DNA of 64,000 bases from Elusimicrobiaceae bacterium (GCA_017618215.1 JAFZUQ010000001.1:77872-141871), one strand, 5' to 3'; shown: positions 3,782 to 59,104, numbered from the stretch's first letter. The notes: a model not told the origin generated them from the sequence alone. Program-made: numbers and translations.

Positions 3782-3790
3782 ATTATACCA
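3782..3790 (-). promoter_or_regulatory. extended -10 promoter (TGGTATAAT) for ppdK
   Basis: Reverse complement of ATTATACCA reads TGGTATAAT, about 48 nt upstream of the ppdK ATG. Confidence 0.5.
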
Positions 3791-3837
3791 TTTTTTGAGA
3801 TATCGTAGTAAAATCGGGAATTTGCAATAATTATTCT

Positions 3838-3967
3838 TTGCCGTCAAAGTCTTTTTGGTAAATTTTGATTTTTCCGCTCCTAGAGTACCGAGAGTCGCTC
3901 CGCTCCCGTTCTTCTTTGTACACGTCGTCGCGGTAAAAATCAAAATTTCCTCAAAAATACTTGCCGG
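3838..3967. repeat. long-hairpin repeat family, copy 1
   Basis: Arm TAAATTTTGATTTTTCCGC / core TCCTAGAGTACCGAGAGTCGCTCCGCTCCCGTTCTTCTTTGTACACGTCGTC / arm GCGGTAAAAATCAAAATTT / flank CCTCAAAAATACTTGCC. Homologous to 11335-11462 and 29829-29957. Confidence 0.8.
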
Positions 3968-4048
3968 ATGTTGCTCACGGTTTGGCTTTATCAAATTTTC
4001 TGCGCGGCGCGAAATTGTTCTCACACGCTGCGGCTCTGTATTCTTAAA

Positions 4049-4163
4049 TCGTCGCGGTAAAAATCAAAATTATTTCCTTTTATTCCGCTCCCCTTTGCTT
4101 GCAAAGGCGGAGAGGTTAGGAGTGGGGTTATAAAATAAAACTTTCCTCAAAAATACTTGCAGG
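4049..4163. repeat. partial second unit of the hairpin repeat (right half duplicated with a roughly 70-nt internal insertion)
   Basis: TCGTCGCGGTAAAAATCAAAATT (4049-4071) and CCTCAAAAATACTTGC (4145-4160) repeat 3924-3947 and 3949-3964. The unit abuts the stop codon of the S8 peptidase gene. Confidence 0.7.
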
Positions 4164-4164
4164 T

Positions 4165-5382
4165 TTAATTCTGTAAACTGTCAATTAAGCGTTTTGGATT
4201 TATAAAATATTTTACCTGATATTGTTTACCCGTGGAATCTTTTACTGGAACGCTATCTGCGGTTTTGCGGGCAATAGAAATAAAATCTTCCATCTTTAAA
4301 TTAGGTTTTGCTTGTTTTGCCAAAGCGGCCACGCCTGCCAAATACGGTACACCCCAACTGAAACCACCGTCTGAATAATAAGCATAATCAGTTTCCCCTG
4401 TTTCACAAGCGGTAACTCTGTAATCAGTAGGTACAAAAATTTTTTTACTTTTTGATATAATTCTCATATCTTCATCTCTATACCAAAAGGGAGGATAATT
4501 ATAGGATGCCAAATCATAGGGGTCTGCATAATATCCATTTCTGCTTATTGCCAAGATATGGTTAGTTGTTAATATCAATACATTTTGCTTTTTAGCATTT
4601 TGTAAAGCAGTTTGAAGTTTATCCGCATCTTTATCATTTTCCGCAAAACCTCTGGAAATGGAAATAATTGATATTTTATTTTTTTTAGGTAAAGTTTTAT
4701 TTAACTCCAAGATATAATTTATTGCTTCGGCAATCGGACCTGCATCAAAAATATGACTTTGTTTGTCTACATTAAATTGAGCAGCTACAAAATATAAATC
4801 TGCACTGGGTGCTACACCTATATTTTTACCGACTGCAATAGAAGATACAGCTGTCCCATGCATAGTGCCTTCCTTCCCAACTGTAAAATTTTTATAATAT
4901 TTAATATTATTTTTATACTCTTGGTGGGAAGATAAAGGCTGATCAATAATAGCCAAACCTACGCCTTTACCCGTAATACCTCTTGCATGCAATTCTTTGA
5001 TATTTAAACCGGGTGTTTTACCTATTTTATTTATTTGTTCCAAGTCAAACCAATCAGGCATTGTTGAAGGCCATATTGTGCTATCATTAAAAGAAAGTTT
5101 ATTTATAATATCTTCCGGTAATTTTGCAAAATCTACGTCCGACACATCACAATATCTTATATCTATTTCGGGGGAATTTAAATTATTTAATTTTGCTTTA
5201 CATTCTTCTTTATTTTCCATATCCGTAGAATAAGGTTCTAAATCATCTGAGAGATATTCCTCTTTACCGGAAGAAATGCCGTTTACTATATCTTGTTTAA
5301 TCTCGTATATGTCAAGATACATTCCACAAAACAACAAACAACCAACTAGTATGCAAATAATATAATAATATCTCTTTTTCAT
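4165..5382 (-). CDS. membrane-anchored subtilisin-like (S8) serine peptidase
   Basis: 405 aa with an N-terminal TM helix. Asp-His-Ser order: GLAIIDQ, GTMHGTAVSS, GFSWGVPYLAGVAALA. AAGGAG SD. Confidence 0.65.
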   Translation of the reverse strand: MKKRYYYIICILVGCLLFCGMYLDIYEIKQDIVNGISSGKEEYLSDDLEPYSTDMENKEECKAKLNNLNSPEIDIRYCDVSDVDFAKLPEDIINKLSFNDSTIWPSTMPDWFDLEQINKIGKTPGLNIKELHARGITGKGVGLAIIDQPLSSHQEYKNNIKYYKNFTVGKEGTMHGTAVSSIAVGKNIGVAPSADLYFVAAQFNVDKQSHIFDAGPIAEAINYILELNKTLPKKNKISIISISRGFAENDKDADKLQTALQNAKKQNVLILTTNHILAISRNGYYADPYDLASYNYPPFWYRDEDMRIISKSKKIFVPTDYRVTACETGETDYAYYSDGGFSWGVPYLAGVAALAKQAKPNLKMEDFISIARKTADSVPVKDSTGKQYQVKYFINPKRLIDSLQN

Positions 5383-6201: not shown

Positions 6202-6995
6202 TTTGCTAACTCTGCTTTAATAGATTTTTGGTTTAAAATTGCTTTGGCTAAAGTTTCAAAATGTTTTGGTGCATCACTTGTGTATGCTCTAATTTTGGCT
6301 TTAGTTTTAGACGTATTTAATAATTTTTTTTGTGCCAAAATATTTTTTGTTTCAAGTGCGGTGTTATGTGCGGAGTCAATTAATTTAACACTCGATCCTA
6401 GCATTTTTGCAATTTGATTTTTAATTATTGGGTAATGCGTGCAACCCAAAATTAAAGTATCCGCGCCGCATTTTTTAACAGGTGCAAGATAATATTTAAG
6501 CATTGTAGGCAGTAAAGTTTTAAGCAATTTTTTATCTTCAATCAAAGGTACTAAAAGCGGGCAGGCAAATTGGTAAACTTTTAAATTTTTATTTAATTTT
6601 GAAATAGTATTTTTATAACTGTTACTGTTTACCGTTGCTTGCGTTGCTATGACGGCAATTTTACCGTTTTTTGTTGTTTTTACCGCCTGTTTTGCAGCCG
6701 GCATTAAAACACCGAGTAAACCCACTTTTGCAATTTTTTTAATGCTTGGCAAAGCCAAAGCAGACGCGGTGTTGCAACCGACAATAATAAATTTAACTTT
6801 TTTATTTTCCAAAAATTTTACTATTTCCGTTGAATATTTTGTAACAGCTGTTTTTGATTTATTACCGTACGGGACATGTGCGGTATCGCCAAAATAAATG
6901 ATATTTTCAGATGGCAAAACAACTTGCAAGGCTTTTAAAATGGTAAGCCCACCTACGCCGGAATCAAATAAACCGATCGGGGCCTTATTTTGCAT
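6198..6995 (-). CDS. murI: glutamate racemase
   Basis: GLFDSGVGGLT plus catalytic Cys motifs GCNTAS and GCTHYP. 265 aa. Confidence 0.9.
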   Translation of the reverse strand: MQNKAPIGLFDSGVGGLTILKALQVVLPSENIIYFGDTAHVPYGNKSKTAVTKYSTEIVKFLENKKVKFIIVGCNTASALALPSIKKIAKVGLLGVLMPAAKQAVKTTKNGKIAVIATQATVNSNSYKNTISKLNKNLKVYQFACPLLVPLIEDKKLLKTLLPTMLKYYLAPVKKCGADTLILGCTHYPIIKNQIAKMLGSSVKLIDSAHNTALETKNILAQKKLLNTSKTKAKIRAYTSDAPKHFETLAKAILNQKSIKAELAK

Positions 6996-6996
6996 A

Positions 6997-7728
6997 TTAG
7001 AACCTTACGCCGAAATTGGCTTCATAACCAACGCCGTAAGAAGCAAAATTTGCGGCAATACTCATGTCCATATAATTAGGCAATTTGAAGTTTAAACCGG
7101 CTGTTCCGCGTGCGGTTGTGGAGTATGATTTTTTATCAAGCAAACTTGCATCTGCGGCACTTTCCACAGTAAGCACCATATAATCAACTCCGGCACCGAT
7201 ATAAGGCGTGACATAAGGGGTTTTAAAGGATACAACCAAATCACCACTATAATGTGATACGGAAAAATCACGATACACACCTGATTGCGCTAAAGTAACA
7301 ATCATAGCTTGGAAAGTATAATTTTCGTCACGGGGGCGCGTTATGCCCCATTTTAGGCCGCCGCCTGCAAGGGTTAAACCGTCATAAGAGATGGCGCGGA
7401 TAAAACCGTCCAAGCGGAAAGGTAAGCCGATTTCACCTTGAATAAGTGGCATAAATAAATTTTTATTATCATCACGCGGACCAAGGGCTGTATTGTTTTT
7501 ATTTAATCTGGGAACCCAAACACCGTGCATTGAAAGCTGAAAGCCGCCCCAACCCAAAATACGCCCGGTGGTATAAGAAGATGCACCAAGCATGCCTGCC
7601 AAATCTTTGGAAAAATAAGGCAAGTTTTCTGCCGTAACATTATCACGAAAGCCATTGAAAGAAGATATGGCCATTGCAAATGTTGGCGTAAAAAATAAAG
7701 CTAAAAATAAAAGTTTTTTAAATTTCAT
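6997..7728 (-). CDS. putative outer-membrane beta-barrel protein
   Basis: Signal peptide MKFKKLLFLALFFTPTFAMA, alternating aromatic/glycine beta-strand pattern and a C-terminal Phe (..NFGVRF). Confidence 0.55.
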   Translation of the reverse strand: MKFKKLLFLALFFTPTFAMAISSFNGFRDNVTAENLPYFSKDLAGMLGASSYTTGRILGWGGFQLSMHGVWVPRLNKNNTALGPRDDNKNLFMPLIQGEIGLPFRLDGFIRAISYDGLTLAGGGLKWGITRPRDENYTFQAMIVTLAQSGVYRDFSVSHYSGDLVVSFKTPYVTPYIGAGVDYMVLTVESAADASLLDKKSYSTTARGTAGLNFKLPNYMDMSIAANFASYGVGYEANFGVRF

Positions 7729-11265: not shown

Positions 11266-11334
11266 ATATACCTCTATACATTATAGCAATTATATAGAGA
11301 GTTGTAATAGGAATTTCTGATACCTTAGTTTTCT

Positions 11335-11462
11335 GCTAGCGGCGTCTTTTGGGCCAATTTAAATTTTTCTTATCCTAGTGTACCGAGAGTCGCTTCGCTC
11401 CCGTTCTTCTTGGTACACGTCGTCAAAGAAAAATTTAAATTATCTCCAAAATACTTGCTAGG
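11335..11462. repeat. long-hairpin repeat family, copy 2 (cleanest copy)
   Basis: GCTAGC..CTTTTGG..AATTTAAATTTTTCTT / core ATCCTAGTGTACCGAGAGTCGCTTCGCTCCCGTTCTTCTTGGTACACGTCGTC / AAGAAAAATTTAAATT..CCAAAATACTTGCTAG. Nearly perfect 128-nt foldback. Confidence 0.85.
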
Positions 11463-11484
11463 TGTGTGTACTTGTAGCGCGGCT

Positions 11485-11886
11485 TTATTTTTTGGTTAAT
11501 ATTTTTTGGAGTGCTAAAATGGTTTCATCTTTTGGAAACAGTTTTAATGTTTCTTTGCAATCTAAAATTACCTTTTCAATTTCACCATAACGCATATAAA
11601 AATAAATCCTATCAATATAATTTTGAACATTATTTTTGTTTGCTTTTATTGCTTGGGTGTAAAATTTTTCAGCTTCTTGTTTTAAGCCAACATTTTCACA
11701 TACGGTTATTATATTTTTGCAAGCATAATAATCTTTATATGCTTTCTTAAAATCTTCAACCGCTTTTTTATAATTTTGAATTTTATCATATAATTTTGCC
11801 CTTTCAATATAAAGTTCTTTTATATCCGCGTATTTGTTTATAAGTTTACTATATTCTTTTATTCTTTCTTTAATATTTTCTTTCAT
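11485..11886 (-). CDS. TPR repeat protein
   Basis: 133 aa with repeated A/Y/K 34-residue-like helical pattern (..YKKAVEDFKKAYK.., ..AEKFYTQAIKANK..). Confidence 0.6.
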   Translation of the reverse strand: MKENIKERIKEYSKLINKYADIKELYIERAKLYDKIQNYKKAVEDFKKAYKDYYACKNIITVCENVGLKQEAEKFYTQAIKANKNNVQNYIDRIYFYMRYGEIEKVILDCKETLKLFPKDETILALQKILTKK

Positions 11887-12197
11887 AATTGTATCTCATT
11901 ATTAAAAATTTGAACATAAATAAACGGCTTATTATATTCAATACTTAATGAACCGATTAAATATAACAGCCGTAGTTTGCCATATGGCAAACATTTGACA
12001 CAAAACAAAAGGGGATCAGCCAATTCGTTTTGTGTCTTAACGACTGTTTTTGGTTTCATTAAGTAATTGTTTCCAATTGGGTTTTGTTTTAGCAAAACGC
12101 CCAAAAACAGAATAAATTTTTTAGGGGGGGTAACCCTACATTAAAATTTTAACCTCTATTAAAATTATAATAGCAAATAAACGTTAAATATGCAAAA

Positions 12198-18229: not shown

Positions 18230-19255
18230 CTATTTTTTTGCAGCAAGTTGCCCGCAGGCAGCAGAAATATCTGAACCTAAACTTTTGCGGACAGTTACTT
18301 TAATATTCATTTTTTCTAGGGCTTCTGCAAAGGCATAAACGGCGGCAACGGGTGGTGTTTTTGCTTTTGAAGTAGCCGGGTTACAAGCAATTAAATTAAC
18401 ATGCAAAAGATAATTATCTTTGAAAGAATTTATCCATTTCCCCAACTTCCTAATATGCGCCGGTAAATTATTTACACCATCTATAACGGTATATTCCAGA
18501 AATACTTCGCGCGCATTCAGCTTTAAATAATTTTCAAGTTCCTGTTTTATAATATCTAAATTGTATTTGCGGTTTATCGGCATTAAAGCGGAACGTTCTT
18601 TATTGTCTGCATTATGTAAAGAAAGTGCTAAATTTACTTGTGGCAATTCTTTCGCTAAATTTTCGAATTTGTCGGCAATGCCTGAGGTAGAGATTGATAT
18701 ATGGCGCTTACCTATATTCAAATAGTCTTTATTCGATAAAATTTCAACAGCCTGTTTGACTTCATGGTAATTTAAAAGAGGTTCACCCATGCCCATAAAA
18801 ACTATATTTGAAACGCGATCTCCTTTAAATTCTTTTTGTAAAAATTGATGCCAGAATAAAACCTGGTCTGAAATTTCTTCTGCAGTTAAATTGCGTTTGA
18901 AACCGAGTTTCCCCGTCGCACAAAAAGCACATCCGAGTGGACATCCTGCTTGAGAGGAAACACAAACACTCCAAAATTTTCCAGGTTTCATTAATACTGT
19001 TTCAATTCTAAAACCGTCATGTAATTTTAATAAAGCCTTAAAAACTTTATCTAATTTTGAACTTTGTAATTTTATGAGGTCAAAAGATAAAATTTTGAAA
19101 TTTTTATTTAAGGCTTCCTGTAAATTTTTGGGTAAAGTTTTTATATCCTGCCAAGTACTTTTTCCATCAACAAATATTCCTTGCCTAATTTGATTTAAGC
19201 GGTAAGAAGGAAAATTATTAGTCTTAACGAAATCTTTTACCTTAGTAAAATCCAT
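18230..19255 (-). CDS. rlmN: 23S rRNA/tRNA (adenine-C2)-methyltransferase RlmN
   Basis: Radical SAM motif GCPLGCAFCATG, second conserved Cys near the C-terminus (..DISAACGQL), 341 aa. Confidence 0.9.
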   Translation of the reverse strand: MDFTKVKDFVKTNNFPSYRLNQIRQGIFVDGKSTWQDIKTLPKNLQEALNKNFKILSFDLIKLQSSKLDKVFKALLKLHDGFRIETVLMKPGKFWSVCVSSQAGCPLGCAFCATGKLGFKRNLTAEEISDQVLFWHQFLQKEFKGDRVSNIVFMGMGEPLLNYHEVKQAVEILSNKDYLNIGKRHISISTSGIADKFENLAKELPQVNLALSLHNADNKERSALMPINRKYNLDIIKQELENYLKLNAREVFLEYTVIDGVNNLPAHIRKLGKWINSFKDNYLLHVNLIACNPATSKAKTPPVAAVYAFAEALEKMNIKVTVRKSLGSDISAACGQLAAKK

Positions 19256-19344
19256 ATTTATATTTTATCAAATTTAACAGATTAAAAGTGCAATCCTTAT
19301 GGATATTTTGCCTATTACTGATAAAAATTATAAAATGTAAGCAT

Positions 19345-29728: not shown

Positions 29729-29828
29729 AAATACTCCTTTGTGGCAAAAGCCTACATAAAACAATTATATAAAATTGGAATAAATTTTACGTGTTTACGT
29801 TCCGCGTTATGTGCTTGTACGCATAAAA

Positions 29829-29957
29829 CGCGCTTGCAAATTTAAGCCCTTTTTTATTTTTCTTTTCCTAGAGTACCGAGATGTCGCTACGCTCCACGTT
29901 CTTCTTGGTACTCGTTGTCAAAGAGAAAATAAAAAATCATCTTAAATTTGCTGCGCG
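29829..29957. repeat. long-hairpin repeat family, copy 3 (further pairing extends to about 29790-29985)
   Basis: CGCGCTTGCAAATTTAAG..TTTTTTATTTTTCTTTT / core TCCTAGAGTACCGAGATGTCGCTACGCTCCACGTTCTTCTTGGTACTCGTTGTC / AAAGAGAAAATAAAAAA..CTTAAATTTGCTGCGCG. Confidence 0.8.
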
Positions 29958-29995
29958 ATGCGAGGGAACGCACGTGCGCTACATTCCATATAACA

Positions 29996-36161: not shown

Positions 36162-38111
36162 ATGCGTAAATTTGTATGTATTTTTATATTTGTTTTAAGT
36201 ATTTTTATGTCCGCTTGGTGTGATAAGGTATTAGCGGATATGGTTAGGCCTACGCCAAGACCTCTTTCCCAAAAAGAATTGCAGGCAAAAGAATTTCTTA
36301 AAGCCTGTAAAGATGGTAATTTGGAAGAAGTTAAAAAATTAATAGCCGCCGGAGCGGATGTAAACGGAATTTATGTAATAAGCGGACGCCATCTCTTGGG
36401 ACCTGATGAAAGTAGAGAAGAATTACGCCAAACACCCTTATGTGCTGCCAGCGAAGCGGGACAGCTTGCTATTGTAAAAGAATTGATTAATTATGAGGCA
36501 GATGTTAATAAAACATCCAATGTAGGAAGAACACCTTTGATGTCTGCAAGTTTCGGCGGATATGATGAGATAGTTAAAGTATTATTAAAAGCCGGCGCAG
36601 ATGTAAATTTAGTACCGCATTTTGGAGGAGTATCTTCATATCCGTTACGGTTAGCAAGCAGACAAGGTCATTTAAGTACATTTAAAATTTTACTGGAAGC
36701 CGGGGCAAAAATAGATGAAGGTGTTATGTCTTCTGCAGTAGAAGGGGGAAATATTGAAATCGTTAAAATATTAATAGATAAAGATGTAGATATTACCTTT
36801 AAGGACGGTAATGGTAGAACTCTTTTAATGCCTTATGTAACATGTACAAATGTTGATATAGTAAAATTGCTTCTTGCTCAAAATAAAATAGATGTACAAG
36901 CAATAGACCATCATAATGGCGGTAGAAATGCTCTAATGATTGCAAGTGAAGAAGGTTGTACTGATGTGATACCTTTATTTCTTGAGGCCGGATTAGAGGT
37001 AGATTCAGTAAACAATAGTGGGGAAACCCCATTAATGGGTGCAAGCAGAGGCAGACACTATGAAATAATACGTACATTACTTGCGGCCGGGGCAAATGTA
37101 AATGCGGAAGACAAAGTCGGAAGGACTGCTTTAGTTGATGCTGCTTTGAGTATTGGTATGGGAAGTACGAGAATCCCCATAGAGAAAAGATTTTCTACAG
37201 CAGATTTGGAAACAATAAAAATTTTGGTAGCCGCGGGTGCTGATGTAAATAAAAAGGGGCCTTTTGGGATGACGTCTTTGATGTTTATGACTGAATATGG
37301 AATTACAAAAGGAGAAGCCTCGCAAAAAAATCTAAAAGAAATTGTTCAATTATTATTAAAAGCAGGTGCTGATGTAAATGCAAAGGATGATAGAGGAAAA
37401 ACAGCAATTGCATTAGCCGAAAAAGCAGGGAATAAAGAGATTATAAAACTACTTCAAAAAGCAGGGGCAAAAAAAGAAACTTTTAAAGATAAAATAAAAA
37501 AGGAACTCAAAGGAAAAGATAAATTAATATGTTTATATAACAAAAAATTTAATTTACCTCAAGAGTATAAAGGGCCTAATTTGAAATTACAAAATAGAAA
37601 AACAGGGGAAATTTTTAAAACAGGGCTAACATATAATCAGATGTACATAGATGAACAATGGAAAAGAGTTGCCGGTGGTAGTGGTATAACCGGATATGGT
37701 TATTCGTCAATAATGTACTATGATGAAGATGGCTGTAATGAATATTGGCCTATAGAAAAGAAGAGAGGTGCCGGTACGGAGATACTTGGATATGTTGATA
37801 TAACAGATGTTCCGGCAAACAGTTATTTAAAATATATACCTGAAACCAAAGAAGTAAAAGTGTTGGTTTCGGAAGATAAATATTATAATAACTATATCAA
37901 AGAAAAGATAAAAGATATAGAAAATAAAGAAAAAGAGTTGCAAAAAAGTATTAAAACAGGAAATGCAAAAATAATGACAGAGAGTTTAGAAAAATTTAAA
38001 GAAACTCTTAACAAAGGCATAGGTTTTTATACAAGTTGGTCTCCGGAGAAACAACAAGAATATAATGAAAATTCTAAAAAAGCAAGAGAGCGGTTTTTAG
38101 AAGATAACTAA
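36162..38111 (+). CDS. secreted ankyrin-repeat protein with C-terminal domain of unknown function and coiled coil
   Basis: Signal MRKFVCIFIFVLSIFMSAWC. About 10-11 ANK repeats (..GRTPLM.A...G..EIVK.LL.AGADVN..). The C-terminal 200 aa are non-ANK. Confidence 0.85.
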   Translation: MRKFVCIFIFVLSIFMSAWCDKVLADMVRPTPRPLSQKELQAKEFLKACKDGNLEEVKKLIAAGADVNGIYVISGRHLLGPDESREELRQTPLCAASEAGQLAIVKELINYEADVNKTSNVGRTPLMSASFGGYDEIVKVLLKAGADVNLVPHFGGVSSYPLRLASRQGHLSTFKILLEAGAKIDEGVMSSAVEGGNIEIVKILIDKDVDITFKDGNGRTLLMPYVTCTNVDIVKLLLAQNKIDVQAIDHHNGGRNALMIASEEGCTDVIPLFLEAGLEVDSVNNSGETPLMGASRGRHYEIIRTLLAAGANVNAEDKVGRTALVDAALSIGMGSTRIPIEKRFSTADLETIKILVAAGADVNKKGPFGMTSLMFMTEYGITKGEASQKNLKEIVQLLLKAGADVNAKDDRGKTAIALAEKAGNKEIIKLLQKAGAKKETFKDKIKKELKGKDKLICLYNKKFNLPQEYKGPNLKLQNRKTGEIFKTGLTYNQMYIDEQWKRVAGGSGITGYGYSSIMYYDEDGCNEYWPIEKKRGAGTEILGYVDITDVPANSYLKYIPETKEVKVLVSEDKYYNNYIKEKIKDIENKEKELQKSIKTGNAKIMTESLEKFKETLNKGIGFYTSWSPEKQQEYNENSKKARERFLEDN

Positions 38112-45392: not shown

Positions 45393-46514
45393 ATGCAAGG
45401 TGTAAGCAAACCTGAAAAACCTGTTGGTTTCGGTTTTCACAATATTCCGGGCAAGAACTTCCGGGAAAAAATACAATTTACAAAATATTTTGTATATTTT
45501 TTATGTACTTTTTTCATTATTGTGGGTATATTTTTAATGTTTGCCGTACCGGTTAGTTGGGCAGTATTTGCCGCTTTACTTTTATGTTTTGTCGTTGGGC
45601 CTTTAATGGTTTGCTTTGTAACTTATTATTCTAACAATTATATTTTTGAAGAAGTTGCCCCCGGGCAATATCAAGCCGTATTAAAAGCAGAAGGTTTTGC
45701 CAAATTAAACGATTACCAAAAGAAGGCGCTTATTAATCAAGTATTTGAAGAAGAAAAAGAAAAACAAAACCAAACAGAGCAAGAACAATCTGCCAAAAAA
45801 TCTAAGGCACATGTATATGCTGCAATAATATCTTTAGTGGTAATAGCTTGTTTGATGTATTGGGCGCCGATAACAAGGAAATTGGTTTGCACACATGTTA
45901 GGGGGATTGTATATAACTGTGATTTACAACAACGAGCAGTGTTGCGCAATTTAGATACAGTTAAATTGGGCGCTATAACAGGGGCGGTTGTAGCAAGAAA
46001 ATATGATAAAGACGAACACAAAACATCTTATCAAATACAATTTCGTAGCCCTAATAATACAAATATTTCTTATACACAAATGTGGTTGTTAGATTTACCT
46101 TTTATGTTGGACAGAAAAGTTGATGCTTTAAATAAAAAGTTTAGTAAAGAGGAAGATTTTAGTTATTATTTGGTTAATTATGTGGTTGTTTTAGGGATTA
46201 TAGTTCTCCTTTTCTATCCGCTTATAGTTGCTATAATGGTGCGGAAAGGGGAAAAGGAAAATTCTGACAATAATTATTTTTCGCCGGAACGGTATAAGGC
46301 TATATTGAAAGCGGAAGGTTTAGAAGATATAGAAGATAGATATGCAAAACCATGGGTAGTAACCGACGAAAAAATTATCAATTATTTAAAAGATGATGAG
46401 ACTACCGCTATGCAAAAAGAGTTTTATGACAATTCTTGGTCGGCAAAAGATCAATCTGAAAGGGATCAAGATGTTGAAGATTTAACAAAACAGTTTTACG
46501 ACGACGGAAAATAA
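45393..46514 (+). CDS. membrane protein, paralog family member 1 (extended)
   Basis: 373 aa: two N-terminal TM helices, NNYIFEEVAPGQY tail motif, TM, CTHVRGIVYNC ectodomain, TM, second tail NNYFSPERYKAILKAEG. Confidence 0.75.
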   Translation: MQGVSKPEKPVGFGFHNIPGKNFREKIQFTKYFVYFLCTFFIIVGIFLMFAVPVSWAVFAALLLCFVVGPLMVCFVTYYSNNYIFEEVAPGQYQAVLKAEGFAKLNDYQKKALINQVFEEEKEKQNQTEQEQSAKKSKAHVYAAIISLVVIACLMYWAPITRKLVCTHVRGIVYNCDLQQRAVLRNLDTVKLGAITGAVVARKYDKDEHKTSYQIQFRSPNNTNISYTQMWLLDLPFMLDRKVDALNKKFSKEEDFSYYLVNYVVVLGIIVLLFYPLIVAIMVRKGEKENSDNNYFSPERYKAILKAEGLEDIEDRYAKPWVVTDEKIINYLKDDETTAMQKEFYDNSWSAKDQSERDQDVEDLTKQFYDDGK

Positions 46515-46520
46515 TTATTT

Positions 46521-47129
46521 ATGAACGGCACTTTTGCAAATGAAGATGTAAGTAAATTTAAATCGCGGATGATATTTTTGATGTTTCCGCTTTTTATAAT
46601 TATCGGTTTTTTTGTTTTATTGTTCGGTTTAAGTAGTAAAACTTTGCATTGTACTTACGGTGGTGTAAACGGTTATGCTTGTCAAACTAATTTAAAAATA
46701 TTTGCTTTTAATTTAGGAACGGATAATTTTTCAAATATAACAAAAGCGGTTTCGGTTACTTCAAAGCGCTCGGGCAGTAATGTTTACCAAATGCAATTTG
46801 TTAATCAAAGCGGTCAAAATTTTGCTTATACAAGTTCTTGGACGAGGATGCCCGGCAAAGTAGATAAAGAAGTAGTGGCATTAAATAAATATTTTGACAG
46901 TGGACGGGATTTTAATTATACTTTTGCGCGCGAGTGGTTTTTGATTATCTTCGGTTTATTTTTTGCCGGCGTGCCGATACTTATTTTATTTTTAATTTCG
47001 CATAACCCAAACGATAGTGGTTTTAGAGATTTTGATGCAAAAAAATTTTTAGCACAAAAAGATTTAAGCAAAATGTCTAATGAGGAAATATTGGCATTTA
47101 TTAAACAAAAAAATAATATGGAGAAATAG
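46521..47129 (+). CDS. membrane protein, paralog family member 2
   Basis: TM, CTYGGVNGYAC ectodomain, TM, and tail ending SKMSNEEILAFIKQKNNMEK. Confidence 0.75.
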   Translation: MNGTFANEDVSKFKSRMIFLMFPLFIIIGFFVLLFGLSSKTLHCTYGGVNGYACQTNLKIFAFNLGTDNFSNITKAVSVTSKRSGSNVYQMQFVNQSGQNFAYTSSWTRMPGKVDKEVVALNKYFDSGRDFNYTFAREWFLIIFGLFFAGVPILILFLISHNPNDSGFRDFDAKKFLAQKDLSKMSNEEILAFIKQKNNMEK

Positions 47130-47130
47130 T

Positions 47131-47886
47131 ATGAAATTTATTAAAGAACTTTATGATGTGTTGATAGAAAGATTACGATGTTTATCTGTGGGTGTATATC
47201 GTCGTTGGGGCTTTTTTAGGACATTACCTATCAATATTCCTGCATTGGGTGTTTCAAACGGGGTTTTTCTTCCTAATTCCCAAATAAATAAAATACTTAC
47301 GTATTCCGTATTTCTAATGATGATAGTCGTTAATGTGTTAATTATAATGTTCTGTCTTAGTGTAGATAGAAAAATAACTTGTACTTACAACGGTATGAGT
47401 GGATATAATTGTGTAATAAGTCAAAAAAATATTTATAAAGGCATAAAAAATACAAATTACACCAATATTAAAAGTGCCAATGTGTATAAAGGACGAATTT
47501 ATGGTAGGAAAGGCCTATTACAAGATGAATATAGGTATAGAATATCCTTAGTTGATGTAAATGGTGCTGAACATTATTATGAAGATTGGTCAACCAGAAT
47601 TTCACCTGCAAAAAAAATGGTACAGATATTAAATTCCGAATTTTCTAAAAACCAAAATTTTGAGCAAAAACTGCCGGGGGATTGGTTTTATATCCTTCTT
47701 GCCATATTACTAAATATATTTTTTATAATTATGATATTGTTTTTTAGGGATACGGTAAATAATTATGTGTTTGAAGAAGTTGAGCCGGGTGTTTATAAAC
47801 CGTTTATGAGAATAGATGGTGTAAGTAAAATGTCTAAAGAAGAAATTTTGGCATTTATCAAACAAAAAAATGAGATGAAGAAATAA
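47131..47886 (+). CDS. membrane protein, paralog family member 3
   Basis: Trimmed to the ATG 1 nt after the upstream stop. TM, CTYNGMSGYNC ectodomain, TM, and tail NNYVFEEVEPGVY..SKMSKEEILAFIKQKNEMKK. Confidence 0.7.
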   Translation: MKFIKELYDVLIERLRCLSVGVYRRWGFFRTLPINIPALGVSNGVFLPNSQINKILTYSVFLMMIVVNVLIIMFCLSVDRKITCTYNGMSGYNCVISQKNIYKGIKNTNYTNIKSANVYKGRIYGRKGLLQDEYRYRISLVDVNGAEHYYEDWSTRISPAKKMVQILNSEFSKNQNFEQKLPGDWFYILLAILLNIFFIIMILFFRDTVNNYVFEEVEPGVYKPFMRIDGVSKMSKEEILAFIKQKNEMKK

Positions 47887-48468
47887 ATGAAAAAAATAGG
47901 TTTACTATTAATCTTAATTATTCCAATATATACGATATATGATATGGTATTTTTAAAGCCCTTAATAGGGGCGATAAATTGTGAATATAATGTTGATAAA
48001 AAATATTTTTGCCAGATAATTGAAGAAGCTATCACTCGCAAAAAAATAACAGAAAAAATCTACACAGGAATAACAGAAATTAAAATATTTAGTAAAAAGT
48101 CCGGGAGATGTGGCCCGGAATATACTTTAAAATTGGCAGATAAGGAAAATAATGAATATACTTTAAAACATACCCATTATGGTAAGACAGATTTTGAACC
48201 TTTAAATAATTTATTTAAAGGGGAACAAAATTTTATATACTATAGTAAATCCAATAAAATAAATATAATTTTTTTAAGTGTTGAGGTATTTCTTTGTTTG
48301 CTTGTTATTCTGCTTATAATAAGAGAGATGAAGTATAAAGATATTGACATTATGTCTACAATGAGTGATGAAGAATTGGAACAATTGAAGTCTACGTCAT
48401 TTTCAAATTACAAAAATATTAAAGAAGAAATAAAAAATTCTAAACAAAATTATAACGGAGAGAAATAA
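47887..48468 (+). CDS. membrane protein, paralog family member 4 (most divergent)
   Basis: TM, CEYNVDKKYFC ectodomain, TM, and tail ..MSTMSDEELEQLK. ATG immediately follows the upstream stop. Confidence 0.7.
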   Translation: MKKIGLLLILIIPIYTIYDMVFLKPLIGAINCEYNVDKKYFCQIIEEAITRKKITEKIYTGITEIKIFSKKSGRCGPEYTLKLADKENNEYTLKHTHYGKTDFEPLNNLFKGEQNFIYYSKSNKINIIFLSVEVFLCLLVILLIIREMKYKDIDIMSTMSDEELEQLKSTSFSNYKNIKEEIKNSKQNYNGEK

Positions 48469-48469
48469 A

Positions 48470-49558
48470 ATGAAAAAATTATTTGTATGTTTTACTTTAA
48501 CTTTTGTTCTTTGCGCGGGTGGCGTTTGTGCGCAGTCGGCGCAGCAACTGTTAAATCAACTGAATCGCGCGCCTGTTAAGACGGTAAAACCTAAAGGCGA
48601 AATGCGAATCTTCGTTAAAGATGGTGAGGAAGTTATAACCAATTTCCCGTCGGAAAACTTGCTTGCCGCACCTAAAATACATATAGTTTTACCAACTGAA
48701 AATACACAAAGCCGCTATCCTTCTGTTTATATAATTTCAGGTGAAGAACTGGACAAAGAAAAAATCAAAGAAATGTACCCCGATTTTTACGGTAAATATT
48801 ATTTTGTAACCGTCAAATTAGAGGAGGGGGAAAATAATTTTTCAACTTTTTTGACTAAAGATTTATTGCCTTATATGGAATTAAATTATGCGGTTTTGGC
48901 GGACGGCGCGCAACGCACATTAATTGCAAAGAATTCTTTTGCACTTGCTTATTTGGCTGATTTAAAAAATATTTCCGCCTACTTAAAAAATGCCGCGCTC
49001 GGTTTTGAATATTCTTCCCCTTTACCGAAAATTGAGGTGACGGGAAATGACCTTAATTTATGGGCGGACGGGCCTGTTGATAATATTGCCGCTTTGCACG
49101 CAAGTTTAGCGGCGCAAGGTTTGGTTTATTTGGAAAATTTTGCATATAATATCACTTCGGGCAAACTGGCGCAAGGATCAGCAAATATTGACTTTTTGTT
49201 TAACCGGGCCGGCCGCAAAATTTCCAAAATTACGCCGTACCAACAATTTGAAACACTTGATTTAGATAAAGATTATTCATCACTTTTCTGGCTTAATTTG
49301 AAGGCAAAAAGCGGTTACAAATTGGCTTATATCCCGCAAGATTTACGCATTGCCCCGCCTTTGCTTAACTGGAATAAGGAACAAGCTACATTCAATATAA
49401 TTTTGGGTGCAAGTGAGGATAAAGTTAAGGTTTCCGGCAAAACCGAATTTGGCAAGAAATTTAAGGCTAAATTTAATATTATCAGCAGCGTGGAACAAGC
49501 CCGAAAAGAAGCCCAAAAACAAGCCAAAAAAAAGGCAAAAATAGCCAAAAAACAGTAA
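48470..49558 (+). CDS. secreted protein, possibly a degenerate esterase-like fold, with a Lys-rich tail
   Basis: Signal MKKLFVCFTLTFVLCAGGVCA. The region ..YPSVYIISGE..LLPYMELNY..RTLIAKNSFALAYL resembles putative-esterase families but has no clear GxSxG. Visibly more GC-rich than the four preceding genes. Confidence 0.6.
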   Translation: MKKLFVCFTLTFVLCAGGVCAQSAQQLLNQLNRAPVKTVKPKGEMRIFVKDGEEVITNFPSENLLAAPKIHIVLPTENTQSRYPSVYIISGEELDKEKIKEMYPDFYGKYYFVTVKLEEGENNFSTFLTKDLLPYMELNYAVLADGAQRTLIAKNSFALAYLADLKNISAYLKNAALGFEYSSPLPKIEVTGNDLNLWADGPVDNIAALHASLAAQGLVYLENFAYNITSGKLAQGSANIDFLFNRAGRKISKITPYQQFETLDLDKDYSSLFWLNLKAKSGYKLAYIPQDLRIAPPLLNWNKEQATFNIILGASEDKVKVSGKTEFGKKFKAKFNIISSVEQARKEAQKQAKKKAKIAKKQ

Positions 49559-52483: not shown

Positions 52484-52555
52484 TGGGCAGTACAGGGTTC
52501 GAACCTGTGACCTTCCGCGTGTGAGGCGGACGCGCTACCACTGCGCCAACTGCCC
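52484..52555 (-). tRNA. tRNA-Val (anticodon CAC)
   Basis: Reverse complement folds as acceptor GGGCAGT/ACTGCCC, anticodon stem TCCGC/GCGGA with loop CTCACAC, and T arm ACAGG-TTCGAAC-CCTGT. 72 nt. Confidence 0.9.
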
Positions 52556-53417: not shown

Positions 53418-55514
53418 ATGAGTAATCTAGGAAAATTTAGCCACAGCGTAGAAGTCGGTGGCAAAACTATCACGCTTGAAACAGGTGTGATGGCTAAACA
53501 AGCCGACGGTGCTGTTATCGCCCGTATCGGCGATACTATGGTGCTTGCAACTGCTGTTTGTGATAAAGTACAAAAACCCGGTTTGCAAGATTTCGTACCT
53601 TTAACCGTTAATTATAAAGAAAGAACCTATGCCGCGGGTAAAATCCCCGGCGGTTTTTTTAAACGCGAAACAAAGGCAAGCAAAAAGGAAACATTATCCT
53701 CACGTCTTATTGACCGCTCTATGCGCCCTCTATTCCCTGAAGGGTTTGCATGTGAAGTCAATGTTACCGCAATGGTACTTTCTGCCGACGGTGTAAATGA
53801 CAGTGATGTTTTAAGTATTGTTGCCTCAAGTGCCGCAACGGTAATTTCTTCAATTCCTTTTACCCAACCTGTTGCAGGTGTTAGGGTTGACCGCGTAAAC
53901 GGACAATACATTATTAACCCGACAGTGCAAGAAAGAAAAGTTGCCGATATGGACCTCGTAATCGCAGGTACCATGCAAGGCATCATGATGGTTGAAGGCG
54001 GTGCACATGAAGTTGATGAAGAATCACTCGTAAAAGCTATTGAAATTGCACAACCCGAAGTCAAAAAACTTTGCCAAGCACAACTTGACCTTCGTGAAAA
54101 ATGCGGTAAAGCAAAATTTGAATTTAAAGCAGAAACTTTACCTCAAGAAGTTTTGGATATGGCAAACAACACATATCGCGCAAAAGTTGCGGAAATTTTA
54201 CATAAATTCTCCGATAAACAAACACGCGATTGTGATATTGCTAATTTAAAAGAAGCTTTTAAAACAGAATTAACCGAAAAATACCCCGAAGAAGGCGCAA
54301 TTTACGCCGATTTTGCTATGGAAATGCTCGCTTATGAAGAATCACGCAAAATGGTATTGAATGAAGGTGTCCGCGTAGACGGTAGAAAGACTGACCAAAT
54401 CAGACCTTTAAGCTCTATGGTCGGTGTTTTACCTTGCGCACACGGTTCAGCTTTATTTACCCGCGGTCAAACCCAATCACTTGCAACCGCAACTTTAGGT
54501 ACATCAAGTGATGCGCAAATGGTGGAAGGCCTTGAAGAAACTTATGATGAAACTTTTATGCTTCATTATAATTTCCCCGGCTTTGCTACCGGCGAATGTA
54601 AACCGGACCGCGCACCCGGCCGCCGCGAAATCGGCCACGGGGAACTTGCACGCCGCGCTTTAATGCCGCTTATTCCAAGCCAAGATGTATTCCCTTATAC
54701 TATTAGGGTTGTTTCCGATATTATGGAATCAAACGGTTCCTCTTCAATGGCAAGCGTCTGCGGCGGTTCTTTAGCTTTATTTGATGCAGGCGTTCCTATG
54801 AAAGCCGCTTGCAGCGGTATCGCTATGGGTTTAATTACCGAGGGTGACAAATATGCCGTACTCTCCGATATTATGGGTATGGAAGACCACCTCGGCGATA
54901 TGGACTTTAAACTTACCGGTTCCCGCAAAGGTATAACCGCTTTCCAAATGGACTTAAAACTTGCAACAGGTATTTCCTTGGACGTTTTAAGAAAAGCCAT
55001 TGCACAAGCCACAAAAGGCCGCATGTTTATTATGGACCATATGGATTCAGTTATCAGCGAACCGCGCAAAACTTTACCGAAAAATGCACCCATGATTCAC
55101 ACAATGATGATCCCGCAAGATAAAATCGGCGCATTAATCGGTCCCGGCGGTAAAAACATTAAACGTATTACCGAAACAACCGGTGCAAAAATTGATGTCG
55201 ATGAAGACGGTAAAGTTATGATCGCCGCACCTAATGCCGAAAAGCTTAACCAAGCAAAAGCGGAAATTGATTTGTTGACGAAAGATGTCGAAGTCGGCCA
55301 AATATATGAAGGGAAAGTCGTTTCCATTCAACCTTTTGGTGCTTTTGTTGAACTTTTGCCCGGTAAAGACGGTTTATTACATATTTCACAAATTGCAAAA
55401 GAAAGAATTGCAAAGGTGGAAGATGTTTTACAACTCGGCGATGTCGTAAAAGTTAAAGTCATTGAAATTGACAATAACGGTAAAGTACGCTTATCAAGAA
55501 AAATTTTGTTATAG
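53418..55514 (+). CDS. pnp: polyribonucleotide nucleotidyltransferase (PNPase)
   Basis: 698 aa with two RNase PH domains, KH (..IGPGGKNIKRI..) and S1 (..GKVVSIQPFGAFVEL..). Follows rpsO as in most bacteria. Confidence 0.95.
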   Translation: MSNLGKFSHSVEVGGKTITLETGVMAKQADGAVIARIGDTMVLATAVCDKVQKPGLQDFVPLTVNYKERTYAAGKIPGGFFKRETKASKKETLSSRLIDRSMRPLFPEGFACEVNVTAMVLSADGVNDSDVLSIVASSAATVISSIPFTQPVAGVRVDRVNGQYIINPTVQERKVADMDLVIAGTMQGIMMVEGGAHEVDEESLVKAIEIAQPEVKKLCQAQLDLREKCGKAKFEFKAETLPQEVLDMANNTYRAKVAEILHKFSDKQTRDCDIANLKEAFKTELTEKYPEEGAIYADFAMEMLAYEESRKMVLNEGVRVDGRKTDQIRPLSSMVGVLPCAHGSALFTRGQTQSLATATLGTSSDAQMVEGLEETYDETFMLHYNFPGFATGECKPDRAPGRREIGHGELARRALMPLIPSQDVFPYTIRVVSDIMESNGSSSMASVCGGSLALFDAGVPMKAACSGIAMGLITEGDKYAVLSDIMGMEDHLGDMDFKLTGSRKGITAFQMDLKLATGISLDVLRKAIAQATKGRMFIMDHMDSVISEPRKTLPKNAPMIHTMMIPQDKIGALIGPGGKNIKRITETTGAKIDVDEDGKVMIAAPNAEKLNQAKAEIDLLTKDVEVGQIYEGKVVSIQPFGAFVELLPGKDGLLHISQIAKERIAKVEDVLQLGDVVKVKVIEIDNNGKVRLSRKILL

Positions 55515-55578: not shown

Positions 55579-55620
55579 ATAATAGAGGGGTAATATAAAA
55601 TAAAATAGGAGGTAGAAATA

Positions 55621-58985: not shown

Positions 58986-59104
58986 CAAGTATTTTTGAGG
59001 TATTTTTTGTTTTTATCTCGGCGAGGTATACCGTGATTACACGCCCGATAGGGCGGAGGTATCCGAAGCCGAAGAAAAAACAGAAAATAACCAAAAAGAT
59101 GAAG
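58986..59104. repeat. long-hairpin repeat family, copy 4 (diverged core, opposite genomic orientation)
   Basis: CAAGTATTTTTGAGG / TATTTTTTGTTTTTATCT / core CGGCGAGGTATACCGTGATTACACGCCCGATAGGGCGGAGGTATCCGAAGCCG / AGAAAAAACAGAAAATA / ACCAAAAAGATGAAG. Same flank-arm-core-arm-flank layout as copies 1-3 read on the other strand. Confidence 0.65.

What the first reader, a model, noticed from the sequence alone, without database searches (positions are those of the whole stretch)
11335..11462. Dispersed 120-130 nt long-hairpin repeat family with a conserved core and covarying AT-rich stems
There are four copies in 64 kb: 3838-3967, 11335-11462, 29829-29957 and 58986-59104.

Layout: flank motif (CCTCAAAAATACTTGC or its complement), a 16-19 bp AT-rich arm, a roughly 52-nt core, the complementary arm, then the complementary flank.

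The cores of copies 1-3 are about 85-90% identical: TCCTAGwGTACCGAGAGTCGCTnCGCTCCCGTTCTTCTTGGTACwCGTyGTC. They contain an inner hairpin GTACCGAGAG/TTCTTGGTAC closed by a conserved 14-16 nt loop.

Between copies 2 and 3 the base of this hairpin changes compensatorily (GTGTAC..GTACAC vs GAGTAC..GTACTC).

The AT-rich arms differ in sequence between copies: TAAATTTTGATTTTT, AATTTAAATTTTTCTT and TTTTTTATTTTTCTTTT. Each pairs with its own partner arm. This points to selection on structure rather than sequence.

Two single-nt insertions in the copy 3 core break every reading frame, so the element is not coding.

All four copies begin within about 25-85 nt of the stop codon of a gene and have the same orientation relative to that gene: S8 peptidase, TPR protein and permease on the minus strand, S1 protease on the plus strand. 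I see no separate GC-hairpin-plus-T-run terminator between stop codon and element. Copies 1-3 also sit upstream of the next gene's extended -10 promoter.

Candidate roles are an unconventional terminator or insulator, a 3'-UTR stabiliser, a structured ncRNA, or a MITE-like DNA element. No transposase or RAYT-like gene is nearby.

The G-U pairs in the inner hairpin of copies 1-3 favour an RNA from the strand antisense to the flanking genes, but one wobble in the copy 4 stem points the other way. The strand of any RNA product is therefore unresolved.
Basis: seen in the sequence. Interest (0 to 1): 0.7.

Follow-up and report, generated by a model that had tools for sequence, protein, structure and literature searches.

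The report
Mosaic hairpin repeat of gut Elusimicrobia
The four hairpins belong to a previously undescribed, high-copy family of palindromic intergenic repeats found in gut and rumen Elusimicrobia, comparable to the REP, ERIC and Correia repeats of other bacteria, and they are not a new RNA gene.

Summary
The unit is about 175-210 nt, not 120-130. The window also holds a fifth member and fragments at 3992-4163.

The core occurs in more than 110 blocks from at least 17 Elusimicrobiaceae/Elusimicrobiales species genomes. There is no Rfam, plasmid or phage match.

The long hairpin shows strong covariation: 90.5% of cells paired, 443 compensated cells against 146 in shuffles.

Across core subfamilies only the gene-sense strand keeps a common fold: a stem, a GAAG loop, a covarying stem, tandem G.A pairs and a GNA or GNRA apex.

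Elements lie 0-18 nt after a stop codon. They sit 7-37 nt before an extended -10 promoter in 39 of 95 copies, against 1 of 95 on the other strand. Orientation is fixed, 42 to 10. No intrinsic terminator, target-site duplication, terminal inverted repeat or transposase was found.

Arms and cores are swapped between copies. Half-elements break sharply at the foot of the core hairpin. Sites are filled or empty between species.

Best reading: a REP/BIME-, ERIC- or Correia-like mosaic repeat. It is probably transcribed as a 3'-UTR hairpin that separates transcription units, and it spreads by recombination.

It is a new member of a known kind, of moderate interest.

The parts
11309..11488 (-). Copy 2, the full unit (type C arms, core subfamily 1a). 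The strand given is the gene-sense strand. Sense 5' flank 11462-11488, containing the TAA stop of the TPR gene at 11485-11487. Outer stem 11335-11340 with 11457-11461. Arms 11341-11368 and 11429-11456. Variable 4-bp box 11369-11372 with 11425-11428. Sense 3' flank 11309-11334.
11380..11416 (-). Apical core hairpin of copy 2. P1 is GTACC/GGTAC. On the sense strand it has an AAGAAGAAC internal loop, P2 and a GC[GNA]GC apex. The only freely variable core base (N) is at 11395. The invariant tag GTCGTC (sense GACGAC) lies at 11419-11424.
3816..3991 (-). Copy 1, the full unit (type A arms, core 1a), between the S8 peptidase gene and the pyruvate phosphate dikinase gene.
3992..4071 (-). Remnant of a type B outer flank (3992-4049) followed by a half-element fragment CGTCGCGGTAAAAATCAAAATT (4050-4071). 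The fragment duplicates 3926-3947 and starts exactly at the GTCGTC-type tag.
4072..4163 (-). Fifth family member, with a third, G-rich core (CCGCTCCCCTTTGC..GCAAAGGCGGAGAGG). It shares the end ..CCTCAAAAATACTTGC and ends 2 nt from the S8 peptidase stop codon (4165-4167). It is absent at the orthologous site in L035.
29775..29982 (-). Copy 3, the full unit (type B arms with longer CG-rich outer flanks). Its core is 1a variant 2, carrying the paired T and A insertions. It starts 14 nt after the permease stop codon. It is absent in L107, where the two genes are 13 nt apart.
58986..59104 (+). Copy 4. It has the same arm and flank design (CAAGTATTTTTGAGG .. CCAAAAAGA) but a different core (GGCGAGGTATAC..GGGCGGAGGTATCC), and it is in gene-sense orientation on the plus strand. 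At the orthologous site L056 carries a core-1a element plus a remnant of this 3' end.
3782..3790 (-). Extended -10 box TGGTATAAT of the pyruvate phosphate dikinase gene, 25 nt beyond the sense 3' end of copy 1.
11280..11288 (-). Extended -10 box TGCTATAAT of the M24 peptidase gene, 20 nt beyond the sense 3' end of copy 2.
29764..29771 (-). -10 box TATATAAT a few nt beyond the sense 3' end of copy 3. It lies upstream of the acyltransferase/acyl-ACP synthetase gene, whose real ATG is at 29728.

Best explanation
This is a lineage-specific, high-copy, mosaic palindromic intergenic repeat of gut and rumen Elusimicrobiaceae. It is of the same general kind as REP/BIME, ERIC and Correia elements.

A unit of about 180-210 bp is built from exchangeable modules:
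- a sense 5' flank (AATAAAGCCAAACCG..);
- two long AT-rich arms;
- a 4-bp box that is free in sequence but complementary;
- an invariant GACGAC tag;
- a 37-39-nt apical core hairpin;
- a sense 3' flank (..CTGCAGATTTCCTAT).

Shown: it sits, in one orientation, between the stop codon of one transcription unit and the extended -10 promoter of the next.

Inferred: no terminator separates it from the upstream gene, so it is transcribed as that gene's 3' UTR. There it folds into a roughly 60-bp imperfect hairpin. The hairpin defines or protects the upstream transcript's 3' end and uncouples it from the downstream unit. This would work by processing or stabilisation, not by intrinsic termination. Its A-tract 3' flank lies where an UP element would sit for the adjacent promoter.

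Shown: copies are gained, lost, replaced and homogenised at the DNA level by recombination between copies.

Inferred: the sharp breakpoint of half-elements at the foot of the core hairpin suggests that a hairpin-directed nick or strand transfer also takes part, as with REP/RAYT or IS200/605.
For: Distribution:
- More than 110 8-kb blocks in at least 17 species-representative genomes, almost all Elusimicrobiaceae or Elusimicrobiales.
- 160 nhmmer hits in the fetched loci.
- Contigs carrying the neighbouring gene often break at the element.

Structure:
- 90.5% of cells paired, 29 of 44 pairs with changes on both sides, 443 compensated cells against 146 in shuffles, 0 of 500 shuffles as high. Controls with the partner slid by 1-3 columns are far lower.
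- The sense-strand core model has compensated pairs: 47-60 (GC 44, CG 7), 46-61 (co-insertion, UA 9, AU 7) and 50-57 (GC 52, AU 4).
- The rival model that continues the first stem has no compensated pair.
- The sense strand is more stable in 12 of 13 non-1a core variants.
- The one variable core base is the middle of the GNA triloop. Subfamily 1b has GUAA there instead.

Context:
- Tandem orientation 42 to 10, p = 9e-6. The left end faces a gene start 78 to 27.
- The stop codon lies 0-18 nt from the sense 5' end, in several copies inside it.
- An extended -10 box lies 7-37 nt after the 3' end in 39 of 95 copies. The figure is 1 of 95 on the other strand and 3 of 95 in an upstream control.
- No terminators.

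Dynamics:
- Filled against empty sites between species.
- Three different versions at the S8 peptidase-dikinase site, and a core swap upstream of birA.
- Arm chimeras in L019, L075, L113 and L008.
- A dozen or so half-elements, nearly all starting at GTCGTC.
- A central-module conversion inside a 100%-identical tract.

No Rfam, plasmid, phage or IMG/VR match.
Against: - No expression data, so transcription, the strand used and any processing are inferred.
- The arms show no G.T against A.C asymmetry.
- Subfamily 1a folds equally well or better on the antisense strand. A purely DNA-level palindrome is therefore not excluded.
- Closeness to stop codons and promoters could partly reflect the small amount of dispensable DNA in compact intergenic regions.
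- ORF calls were crude.
- The loci were selected for carrying the core, and the search pattern fixed 28 core bases. Invariance of those bases is by construction.
- No mobilising enzyme was identified.
- No clean strain-level empty site was recovered, so insertion boundaries are not defined to the nucleotide.
Confidence: 0.6

Rival explanations
1. It is a family of structured non-coding RNA genes or cis-regulatory RNA motifs. The structure is kept by selection on the RNA at each locus, and the DNA is not mobile.
For: - Strong covariation in the arms, box and core.
- An invariant apical motif with GNA/GNRA loops and tandem G.A pairs, which are typical RNA building blocks.
- Fixed orientation relative to genes.
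Against: - Dozens of copies per genome.
- Modular arm and core chimeras, tandem half-elements and species-specific presence or absence.
- No promoter of its own and no Rfam match.
- A compensated change explained by copy-to-copy conversion.
- No strand asymmetry in the arms.
Confidence: 0.15
2. It is a classical MITE: an internally deleted DNA transposon with terminal inverted repeats, moved by a DDE transposase encoded elsewhere in the genome.
For: - Size, non-coding nature, high copy number and long inverted arms.
- Families with the same ends but different cores.
- Insertion polymorphism.
Against: - The outermost 25-30 nt at each end are conserved but not complementary to each other.
- No target-site duplication at any offset or length.
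- No transposase domain in the window.
- No multi-copy transposase-like ORF family in 0.8 Mb of element-bearing loci.
- No plasmid or phage relatives.
Confidence: 0.1
3. It is an unconventional transcription terminator or bidirectional insulator that stops RNA polymerase directly.
For: - It takes the place where a terminator is expected, and no other terminator is present.
- A promoter follows immediately.
Against: - No U-run follows the long hairpin on either strand.
- The short flank segment is no more structured than shuffles: -4.7 against -4.2 kcal/mol.
- The same genome uses ordinary GC-hairpin-plus-T-run terminators elsewhere, for example 55530-55569 and 57916-57955 (family D9).
Confidence: 0.1
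4. It is an attC-like folded recombination site of a cassette system. Genes followed by the hairpin would be exchanged by a site-specific recombinase.
For: - The hairpin lies directly 3' of ORFs in a fixed orientation, with structure more conserved than sequence in parts.
- A 900-bp leader-TPR gene-hairpin cassette is 97-100% identical between two genomes that are otherwise 84-92% identical. The tract edge lies at the element.
- A 3.5-kb gene block ending in copy 4 is replaced in L056.
Against: - Copies are dispersed among syntenic housekeeping genes, not arrayed.
- No integrase in the window.
- The consensus has no RYYYAAC/GTTRRRY core sites.
- The conserved part is the apex, which is the reverse of attC.
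Confidence: 0.05

Closest known systems
REP / BIME elements (Enterobacteria, Pseudomonas; Di Nocera et al. 2013, PMC3733652)
   Same: - High-copy extragenic palindromes, usually less than 20 nt from the 3' end of the upstream ORF.
- They sometimes supply the stop codon.
- They are assembled into mosaic clusters.
- A conserved unpaired tag lies next to the hairpin foot.
- Roles as transcribed 3' hairpins have been proposed.
   Different: - The unit is 5-8 times longer.
- The tag is GACGAC, not GTAG or CGTC.
- The core has a 5-bp stem, an internal loop, a second stem and a GNA/GNRA apex. It is not an 8-9-bp stem with a 4-5-nt loop and a CCA tail.
- The core is embedded at the tip of long AT-rich arms.
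- It is tightly coupled to a downstream promoter, whereas REPs lie at variable distance from downstream ORFs.
- No RAYT was found.
REPINs (REP doublets forming hairpins; Bertels and Rainey 2011, PMC3116915, known to me mainly from memory)
   Same: - A roughly 100-nt or longer hairpin-forming, non-autonomous repeat.
- Hairpin pairing is preserved among copies.
- Within-genome families.
   Different: - A REPIN is two inverted REPs and is symmetric.
- Here there is a single asymmetric core at the apex, and the arms are not REP copies.
- No flanking RAYT gene was seen.
ERIC / IRU 127-bp repeats of Enterobacteria and Vibrio (from memory)
   Same: - Imperfect palindrome of similar length with a conserved central part.
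- Located in transcribed intergenic regions.
- Orientation-dependent effects on mRNA.
- Internal insertions and deletions give size variants.
   Different: - Unrelated sequence and a different phylum.
- A modular exchange of arms and cores, and a promoter-proximal position, are not described for ERIC.
Correia / NEMIS elements of Neisseria (from memory)
   Same: - 100-155-bp hairpin-forming repeats next to genes.
- They are co-transcribed and cut by RNase III.
- Their ends can contribute promoter elements.
- They are associated with recombination and rearrangement.
   Different: - Correia elements have 26-bp terminal inverted repeats and duplicate a TA target.
- Neither terminal inverted repeats at the extreme ends nor a duplication is seen here.
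Integron attC sites / Vibrio cholerae repeats
   Same: - An imperfect palindrome of 60-140 nt directly 3' of ORFs in a fixed orientation.
- It is thought to act as a folded single strand.
   Different: - attC sites are arrayed next to intI, are conserved at the base (R boxes) and are variable in the centre.
- Here copies are dispersed, the apex is conserved and no integrase is present.

Membership tests
REP (GTAG- or CGTC-tagged) / BIME | A 20-40-nt imperfect palindrome with an unpaired GTAG or CGTC tag at its 5' end. For the CGTC type: an 8-9-bp stem, a 4-5-nt loop and a CCA tail. | tested here: not met
   The core is a 37-39-nt composite hairpin. It is preceded on the sense strand by GACGAC, and on the other strand followed by GTCGTC. 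Its stem and loop layout is different (compared).
REP (GTAG- or CGTC-tagged) / BIME | High copy number, extragenic, close to the 3' end of the upstream ORF, clustered into mosaics. | tested here: met
REP (GTAG- or CGTC-tagged) / BIME | A cognate RAYT (Y1/HUH transposase) gene, usually flanked by the repeats. | tested here: inconclusive
   None among the window ORFs by Pfam. None by a crude HUH/Y motif screen of 773 ORFs in the loci. Whole genomes could not be searched.
REPIN | Two REP units in inverted orientation forming the hairpin. | tested here: not met
   There is a single asymmetric core at the apex. The arms are AT-rich and unrelated to the core.
TIR-type MITE (e.g. Correia, RUP) | Terminal inverted repeats at the extreme ends of the element. 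| tested here: not met
   The conserved terminal 25-30 nt (AGGAAATnTGCAG.. and ..GGTTTGGCTTTATT) are not complementary. Pairing starts at the GCCGGC outer stem.
TIR-type MITE (e.g. Correia, RUP) | Target-site duplication flanking the element. | tested here: not met
   No excess of identical flanking k-mers (k = 3-8, offsets 0 to 8 nt outward from each boundary) in 54 copies.
TIR-type MITE (e.g. Correia, RUP) | An autonomous IS with the same ends in the genome. | not testable with these tools
   Only 8-kb blocks around the core matches were available. No transposase-like multi-copy ORF family was found in them.
TIR-type MITE (e.g. Correia, RUP) | Presence or absence polymorphism at orthologous sites. 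| tested here: met
   tRNA-rnpB site, permease-aas site and S8 peptidase-dikinase site. These comparisons are at species level only.
IS200/IS605-derived PATE | Subterminal hairpins at both ends, a fixed 4-5-nt target 5' of the left end, and TnpA/TnpB in the genome. | tested here: not met
   No conserved flanking tetranucleotide. The flank segment is not structured. No TnpA or TnpB in the window.
Rfam RNA families | A match to a curated covariance model at the gathering score. | tested here: not met
   None at the gathering score in the window. With the E-value threshold, only chance miRNA-hairpin hits at 24 bits or less.
Intrinsic (Rho-independent) terminator | A GC-rich hairpin immediately followed by a U-run. 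| tested here: not met
   No site in or beside any of the four copies. The sequence after the hairpin is A-rich on the sense strand.
Integron attC | R''/R' core sites (RYYYAAC / GTTRRRY) at the hairpin base, in an array next to intI. | tested here: not met
   The motifs are absent from the consensus (read directly). The copies are dispersed. No integrase in the window.

The most novel reading that the evidence does not exclude
The invariant GACGAC tag plus core hairpin may be the recognition and cleavage site of a still unidentified enzyme specific for single-stranded hairpins, of HUH type or a new type.

Together with the conserved 250-nt structured leader found upstream of multi-copy prepilin-like and small TPR genes, the hairpins would bracket gene cassettes. 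They would then drive cassette exchange within and between gut Elusimicrobia, that is, a surface-protein variation system built on a repeat.
Probability: 0.12. Interest if true: 0.75.

Novelty: new member of a known kind. Interest (0 to 1): 0.4.

Why it matters
Elusimicrobia are a poorly studied phylum with few cultured members, and no repeat family has been described for them in the literature I could search.

This family is abundant enough to break metagenome assemblies at intergenic regions. It marks the boundaries of transcription units. It also coincides with the edges of two recent inter-species recombination tracts.

It therefore bears on annotation, on MAG assembly and binning, and on how compact gut genomes insulate neighbouring genes.

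It also shows that statistically strong covariation in a dispersed hairpin does not by itself indicate an RNA gene.

Tried and rejected
- **Rfam.** Searched at the gathering score and at E <= 10. Nothing relevant.
- **Terminator in the 25-nt variable segment of the sense 5' flank.** It is not more stable than shuffles. Its zero-loop palindromy is only marginally enriched, 2.4 against 1.9.
- **Target-site duplications and a fixed target sequence.** None.
- **Exact targeting of stop codons.** Stop codons are near but at scattered offsets. The fused TAA is mostly a feature of the TPR gene family.
- **The promoter as a fixed part of the element.** The spacing varies from 7 to 37 nt. The promoter segment next to copy 3 is unique in 0.8 Mb.
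- **Purifying selection as the cause of the 98% identity of copy 2 to L091.** Rejected. The identity belongs to a 900-bp recombination tract.
- **Hypermutation of the variable segments.** Rejected. The divergence begins at a tract edge.
- **Strand assignment from whole-element folding energies or arm wobble pairs.** No signal.
- **Transposase search.** Nothing found by Pfam in the window, by clustering ORFs of the loci, or by an HUH motif screen.
- **Plasmid, phage and IMG/VR searches.** No hit.
- **PDB sequence search with the TPR protein.** Only generic TPR matches.
- **Literature searches.** No description of these repeats.

Full report
**What is there.**

Copies 1-3 share a GC-rich core flanked by AT-rich complementary arms. 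A 37-nt core pattern allowing 3 mismatches matches twice in the window where 0.00 matches are expected. Copy 3 differs by two single-base insertions. Copy 4 is inverted and shares only the arm and flank design. Its core is unrelated. Copy 2 folds much better than dinucleotide shuffles on both strands, z = -3.2 and -4.0.

The window also holds a fifth member with a third core type at 4072-4163. It ends 2 nt from the S8 peptidase stop codon. A half-element fragment lies at 4050-4071.

**True extent and anatomy.** I aligned 98 copies with 260-nt flanks.

Written on the window's plus strand for copies 1-3, a unit reads as follows:
- AGGAAATnTGCAGTTnnnnTTTTTT
- outer stem GCCGGC
- a 5-nt variable loop
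- CTTTTTGG and the left arm
- a 4-nt box
- TCCTAGA
- the core
- TCGTCGTC
- the complementary 4-nt box
- the right arm
- CCTCAAAAATACTT
- GCCGG
- about 10 variable, purine-pyrimidine-alternating nt
- CGGTTTGGCTTTATT

There are three arm types. Type A is copy 1, type C is copy 2, and type B is copy 3, which has longer CG-rich outer flanks. There are at least four subfamilies of the main core (1a-1d), plus two other core types that carry the same ends. Arms and cores occur in different combinations. Left and right arms of different types can also be joined, as in L019, L075, L113 and L008.

The blocks come from at least 17 assemblies. Almost all are rumen or gut Elusimicrobiaceae MAGs. The rest are Elusimicrobiales from mouse and human gut and the complete genome of Elusimicrobium posterum. 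Three MAGs contributed 19-21 blocks each.

An HMM of the element finds 160 copies in the 0.8 Mb fetched. Contigs that carry the neighbouring TPR gene frequently end inside the element, as expected for a repeat.

There is no match in Rfam, in PLSDB plasmids, in GenBank phages or in IMG/VR. I found no description in the searchable literature. The search pattern fixed 28 core bases, so their invariance across these hits is by construction.

**Structure and covariation.** On 99 copies the long hairpin has 90.5% of cells paired. Changes on both sides occur at 29 of 44 pairs. There are 443 compensated cells against 146 in shuffles, and 0 of 500 shuffles reach this. Controls with the partner slid by 1-3 columns are far lower.

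The most variable positions are the 4-bp box beside the core and the 5-bp outer stem. The box occurs as CTGC/GCAG, CTTT/AAAG, CCGC/GCGG, ATTT/AAAT, ATCT/AGAT, CTAC/GTAG, CAAC/GTTG, CAAG/CTTG and TCGC/GCGA.

Comparison of core subfamilies is informative about the strand. On the gene-sense strand all of them fold alike:
- stem P1, GTACC/GGTAC;
- a 5' internal loop with an invariant GAAG;
- a covarying stem P2;
- tandem G.A pairs;
- a two-base-pair apex closed by a GNA triloop, or by GUAA in subfamily 1b.

This model has compensated pairs: 47-60 (GC 44, CG 7), 46-61 and 50-57 (GC 52, AU 4). These insertions co-occur in 36 of 37 copies that carry either one.

The only freely variable base of the core is the middle of the triloop: T 61, C 32, A 16, G 3.

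The alternative fold simply continues P1 and relies on G-U pairs on the antisense strand. It has no compensated pair and is broken in 22 of 57 sequences. The sense strand is the more stable one in 12 of 13 non-1a core variants. Subfamily 1a shows no preference, 19 against 15. The arms show no wobble asymmetry, 120 G.T against 83 A.C.

The strand question is therefore narrowed in favour of the gene-sense strand for the apex. It is not settled.

**Genomic context.** I used simple ORF calls around 119 copies.
- In tandem gene contexts, orientation is the same as in the window in 42 cases against 10 (p = 9e-6).
- The end I call the sense 3' end faces a gene start in 78 of 105 cases.
- Where a gene ends next to the sense 5' end, its stop codon lies 0-18 nt away. 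In several copies it is the TAA inside AATAAAGCC.
- An extended -10 box (TGnTAnAAT) lies 7-37 nt beyond the 3' end on the sense strand in 39 of 95 copies. The figure is 1 of 95 on the opposite strand and 3 of 95 in an upstream control (p = 7e-13).
- The genes downstream include tRNA and tmRNA genes.
- No hairpin-plus-T-run terminator is predicted in or beside any window copy.
- The short variable flank is not structured.
- The genome does use ordinary terminators elsewhere (family D9).
- No transposase, integrase or RAYT domain is found in any window ORF.

**Dynamics.** Synteny between the window and loci from other species shows gain, loss and replacement.
- The window lacks the element between the tRNA at 52484-52555 and the RNase P RNA gene. 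L056, L057 and L088 have it there.
- L107 lacks copy 3, and there the two genes are 13 nt apart.
- The S8 peptidase-dikinase site carries three different versions in three species.
- Upstream of birA the window has the fourth core type. L056 has a core-1a element joined to a remnant of the former.
- A dozen or so half-elements, stacked head to tail beside full ones, nearly all begin at GTCGTC. This is the base next to the foot of the core hairpin.
- No target-site duplication and no fixed flanking target were found.

Two recombination tracts end at elements. In the window against L091, a 900-bp stretch at 11266-12166 is 97-100% identical inside an 84-92% background. It covers copy 2, the TPR gene and its leader. 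In L057 against L088, a 370-nt fully identical tract stops inside the element.

Within that second tract the only differences are the box (CAAG/CTTG against CAAC/GTTG) and the triloop base. A compensated change can therefore arise in one step, by conversion of the central module from another copy. This weakens covariation as proof of RNA-level selection.

**Interpretation.**

Shown:
- a lineage-wide, high-copy, modular palindromic repeat;
- a structure preserved across copies;
- a fixed position and orientation between a stop codon and the next promoter;
- turnover by recombination.

Inferred:
- No terminator intervenes, so the element is transcribed with the upstream gene. It forms a roughly 60-bp imperfect hairpin that ends or protects that transcript and uncouples it from the next unit. 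The known precedents are RNase III processing of Correia elements and 3' protection by REPs, which I cite from memory.
- The A-tracts of the 3' flank fall at about -41 to -53 of the adjacent promoters. There they could serve as an UP element.
- The sharp breakpoint at the hairpin foot, next to an invariant tag, resembles the way HUH enzymes use REP or IS200/605 hairpins. No such enzyme was found.

**Comparison with known kinds.** The element behaves like REP/BIME, ERIC and Correia repeats but fails the defining tests of each.
- Its tag and hairpin differ from GTAG and CGTC REPs.
- It is not a REP doublet.
- It has no terminal inverted repeats at its extreme ends and no target duplication.
- It lacks attC core sites and an integrase.

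I file it as a new family of a known kind.

**Side observation.** Following the TPR gene next to copy 2 led to a second repeat.

The gene belongs to a paralogous family of small TPR proteins. In 11 of 13 members the stop codon is fused to a hairpin element or lies within 10 nt of it.

Every member is preceded by a conserved, structured leader of about 250 nt. In the window it is at 11907-12159 on the minus strand. It has no Rfam match. With only 9 sequences, 19 of 39 predicted pairs carry compensatory changes. There are 38 copies in the fetched DNA. They lie upstream of TPR genes and of type IV prepilin-like genes. This may be the more interesting object and deserves its own analysis.

**Verdict.** The finding is real, non-random and undescribed. 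It is a genomic repeat family rather than an RNA gene. Its function is inferred, not shown.

Noticed in passing
window 11907-12159 (minus strand); also L014, L022, L054, L058, L077, L086, L091, L093, L101 and about 25 more loci: A conserved, highly structured non-coding leader of about 250 nt follows an extended -10 promoter.

Its helices are CTGTTTTTGG/CCAAAAACAG, two covarying hairpins, and ACGGCTG/CAGCCGT followed by a U-run. With only 9 sequences, 19 of 39 predicted pairs have compensatory changes.

There is no Rfam match. There are 38 copies in the fetched DNA, upstream of small TPR genes and type IV prepilin-like genes.

It is a candidate attenuator or riboswitch-like RNA.
   Followed up: partly
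window 11485-11886 (minus strand) and paralogues in the loci: This is a multi-copy family of small TPR proteins of 103-154 aa, with 2-3 paralogues per MAG.

In 11 of 13 members the TAA stop codon is fused to the 5' end of a hairpin element or lies within 10 nt of it, whatever the element's arm or core type.

Only 21 homologue clusters were found, none of them named. PDB matches are generic TPR proteins.
   Followed up: partly
window 11266-12166 against L091; L057 about 6660-7030 against L088: Recent recombination tracts, 97-100% identical, lie inside backgrounds of 84-92% identity between different species-level genomes. In both cases one edge of the tract lies at or inside a hairpin element.
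   Followed up: partly
window 55536-59091: A 3.5-kb block holds a DUF4424 protein gene, an unknown ORF and a trypsin-like protease gene, followed by copy 4. In L056 it is replaced by about 1 kb carrying a different, Cys-rich ORF on the opposite strand.

The left edge of the block is a duplicated terminator, 55506-55569 and 57892-57955.
   Followed up: partly
window 58286-58902 and 63406-63998: Two trypsin-like protease genes about 78% identical lie in inverted orientation 4.5 kb apart (inverted repeats I1-I5).
   Followed up: no
window 45393-49558: A run of five ORFs with no Pfam match. It includes a duplicated 64-nt gene end, 47065-47128 and 47822-47885, 88% identical.
   Followed up: no
window 19255-19288 and the GC-skew profile: Gene orientation switches from the minus to the plus strand at about 19.3 kb, where cumulative GC skew is at its minimum. 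This could be a replication origin region or only a change in gene strand.

Copy 3 at 29.8 kb follows the local gene strand rather than the skew.
   Followed up: no
loci L023, L033, L041, L049, L092: Some elements carry an extra inserted module, TACGGGTAGAATTACCC, in the left arm. In L049 its complement is also present in the right arm, which adds a further stem.
   Followed up: no
window 36162-38111: An ankyrin-repeat protein gene of 649 aa with seven recognisable 33-residue repeats. Ankyrin repeats are uncommon in bacteria (family D1).
   Followed up: no
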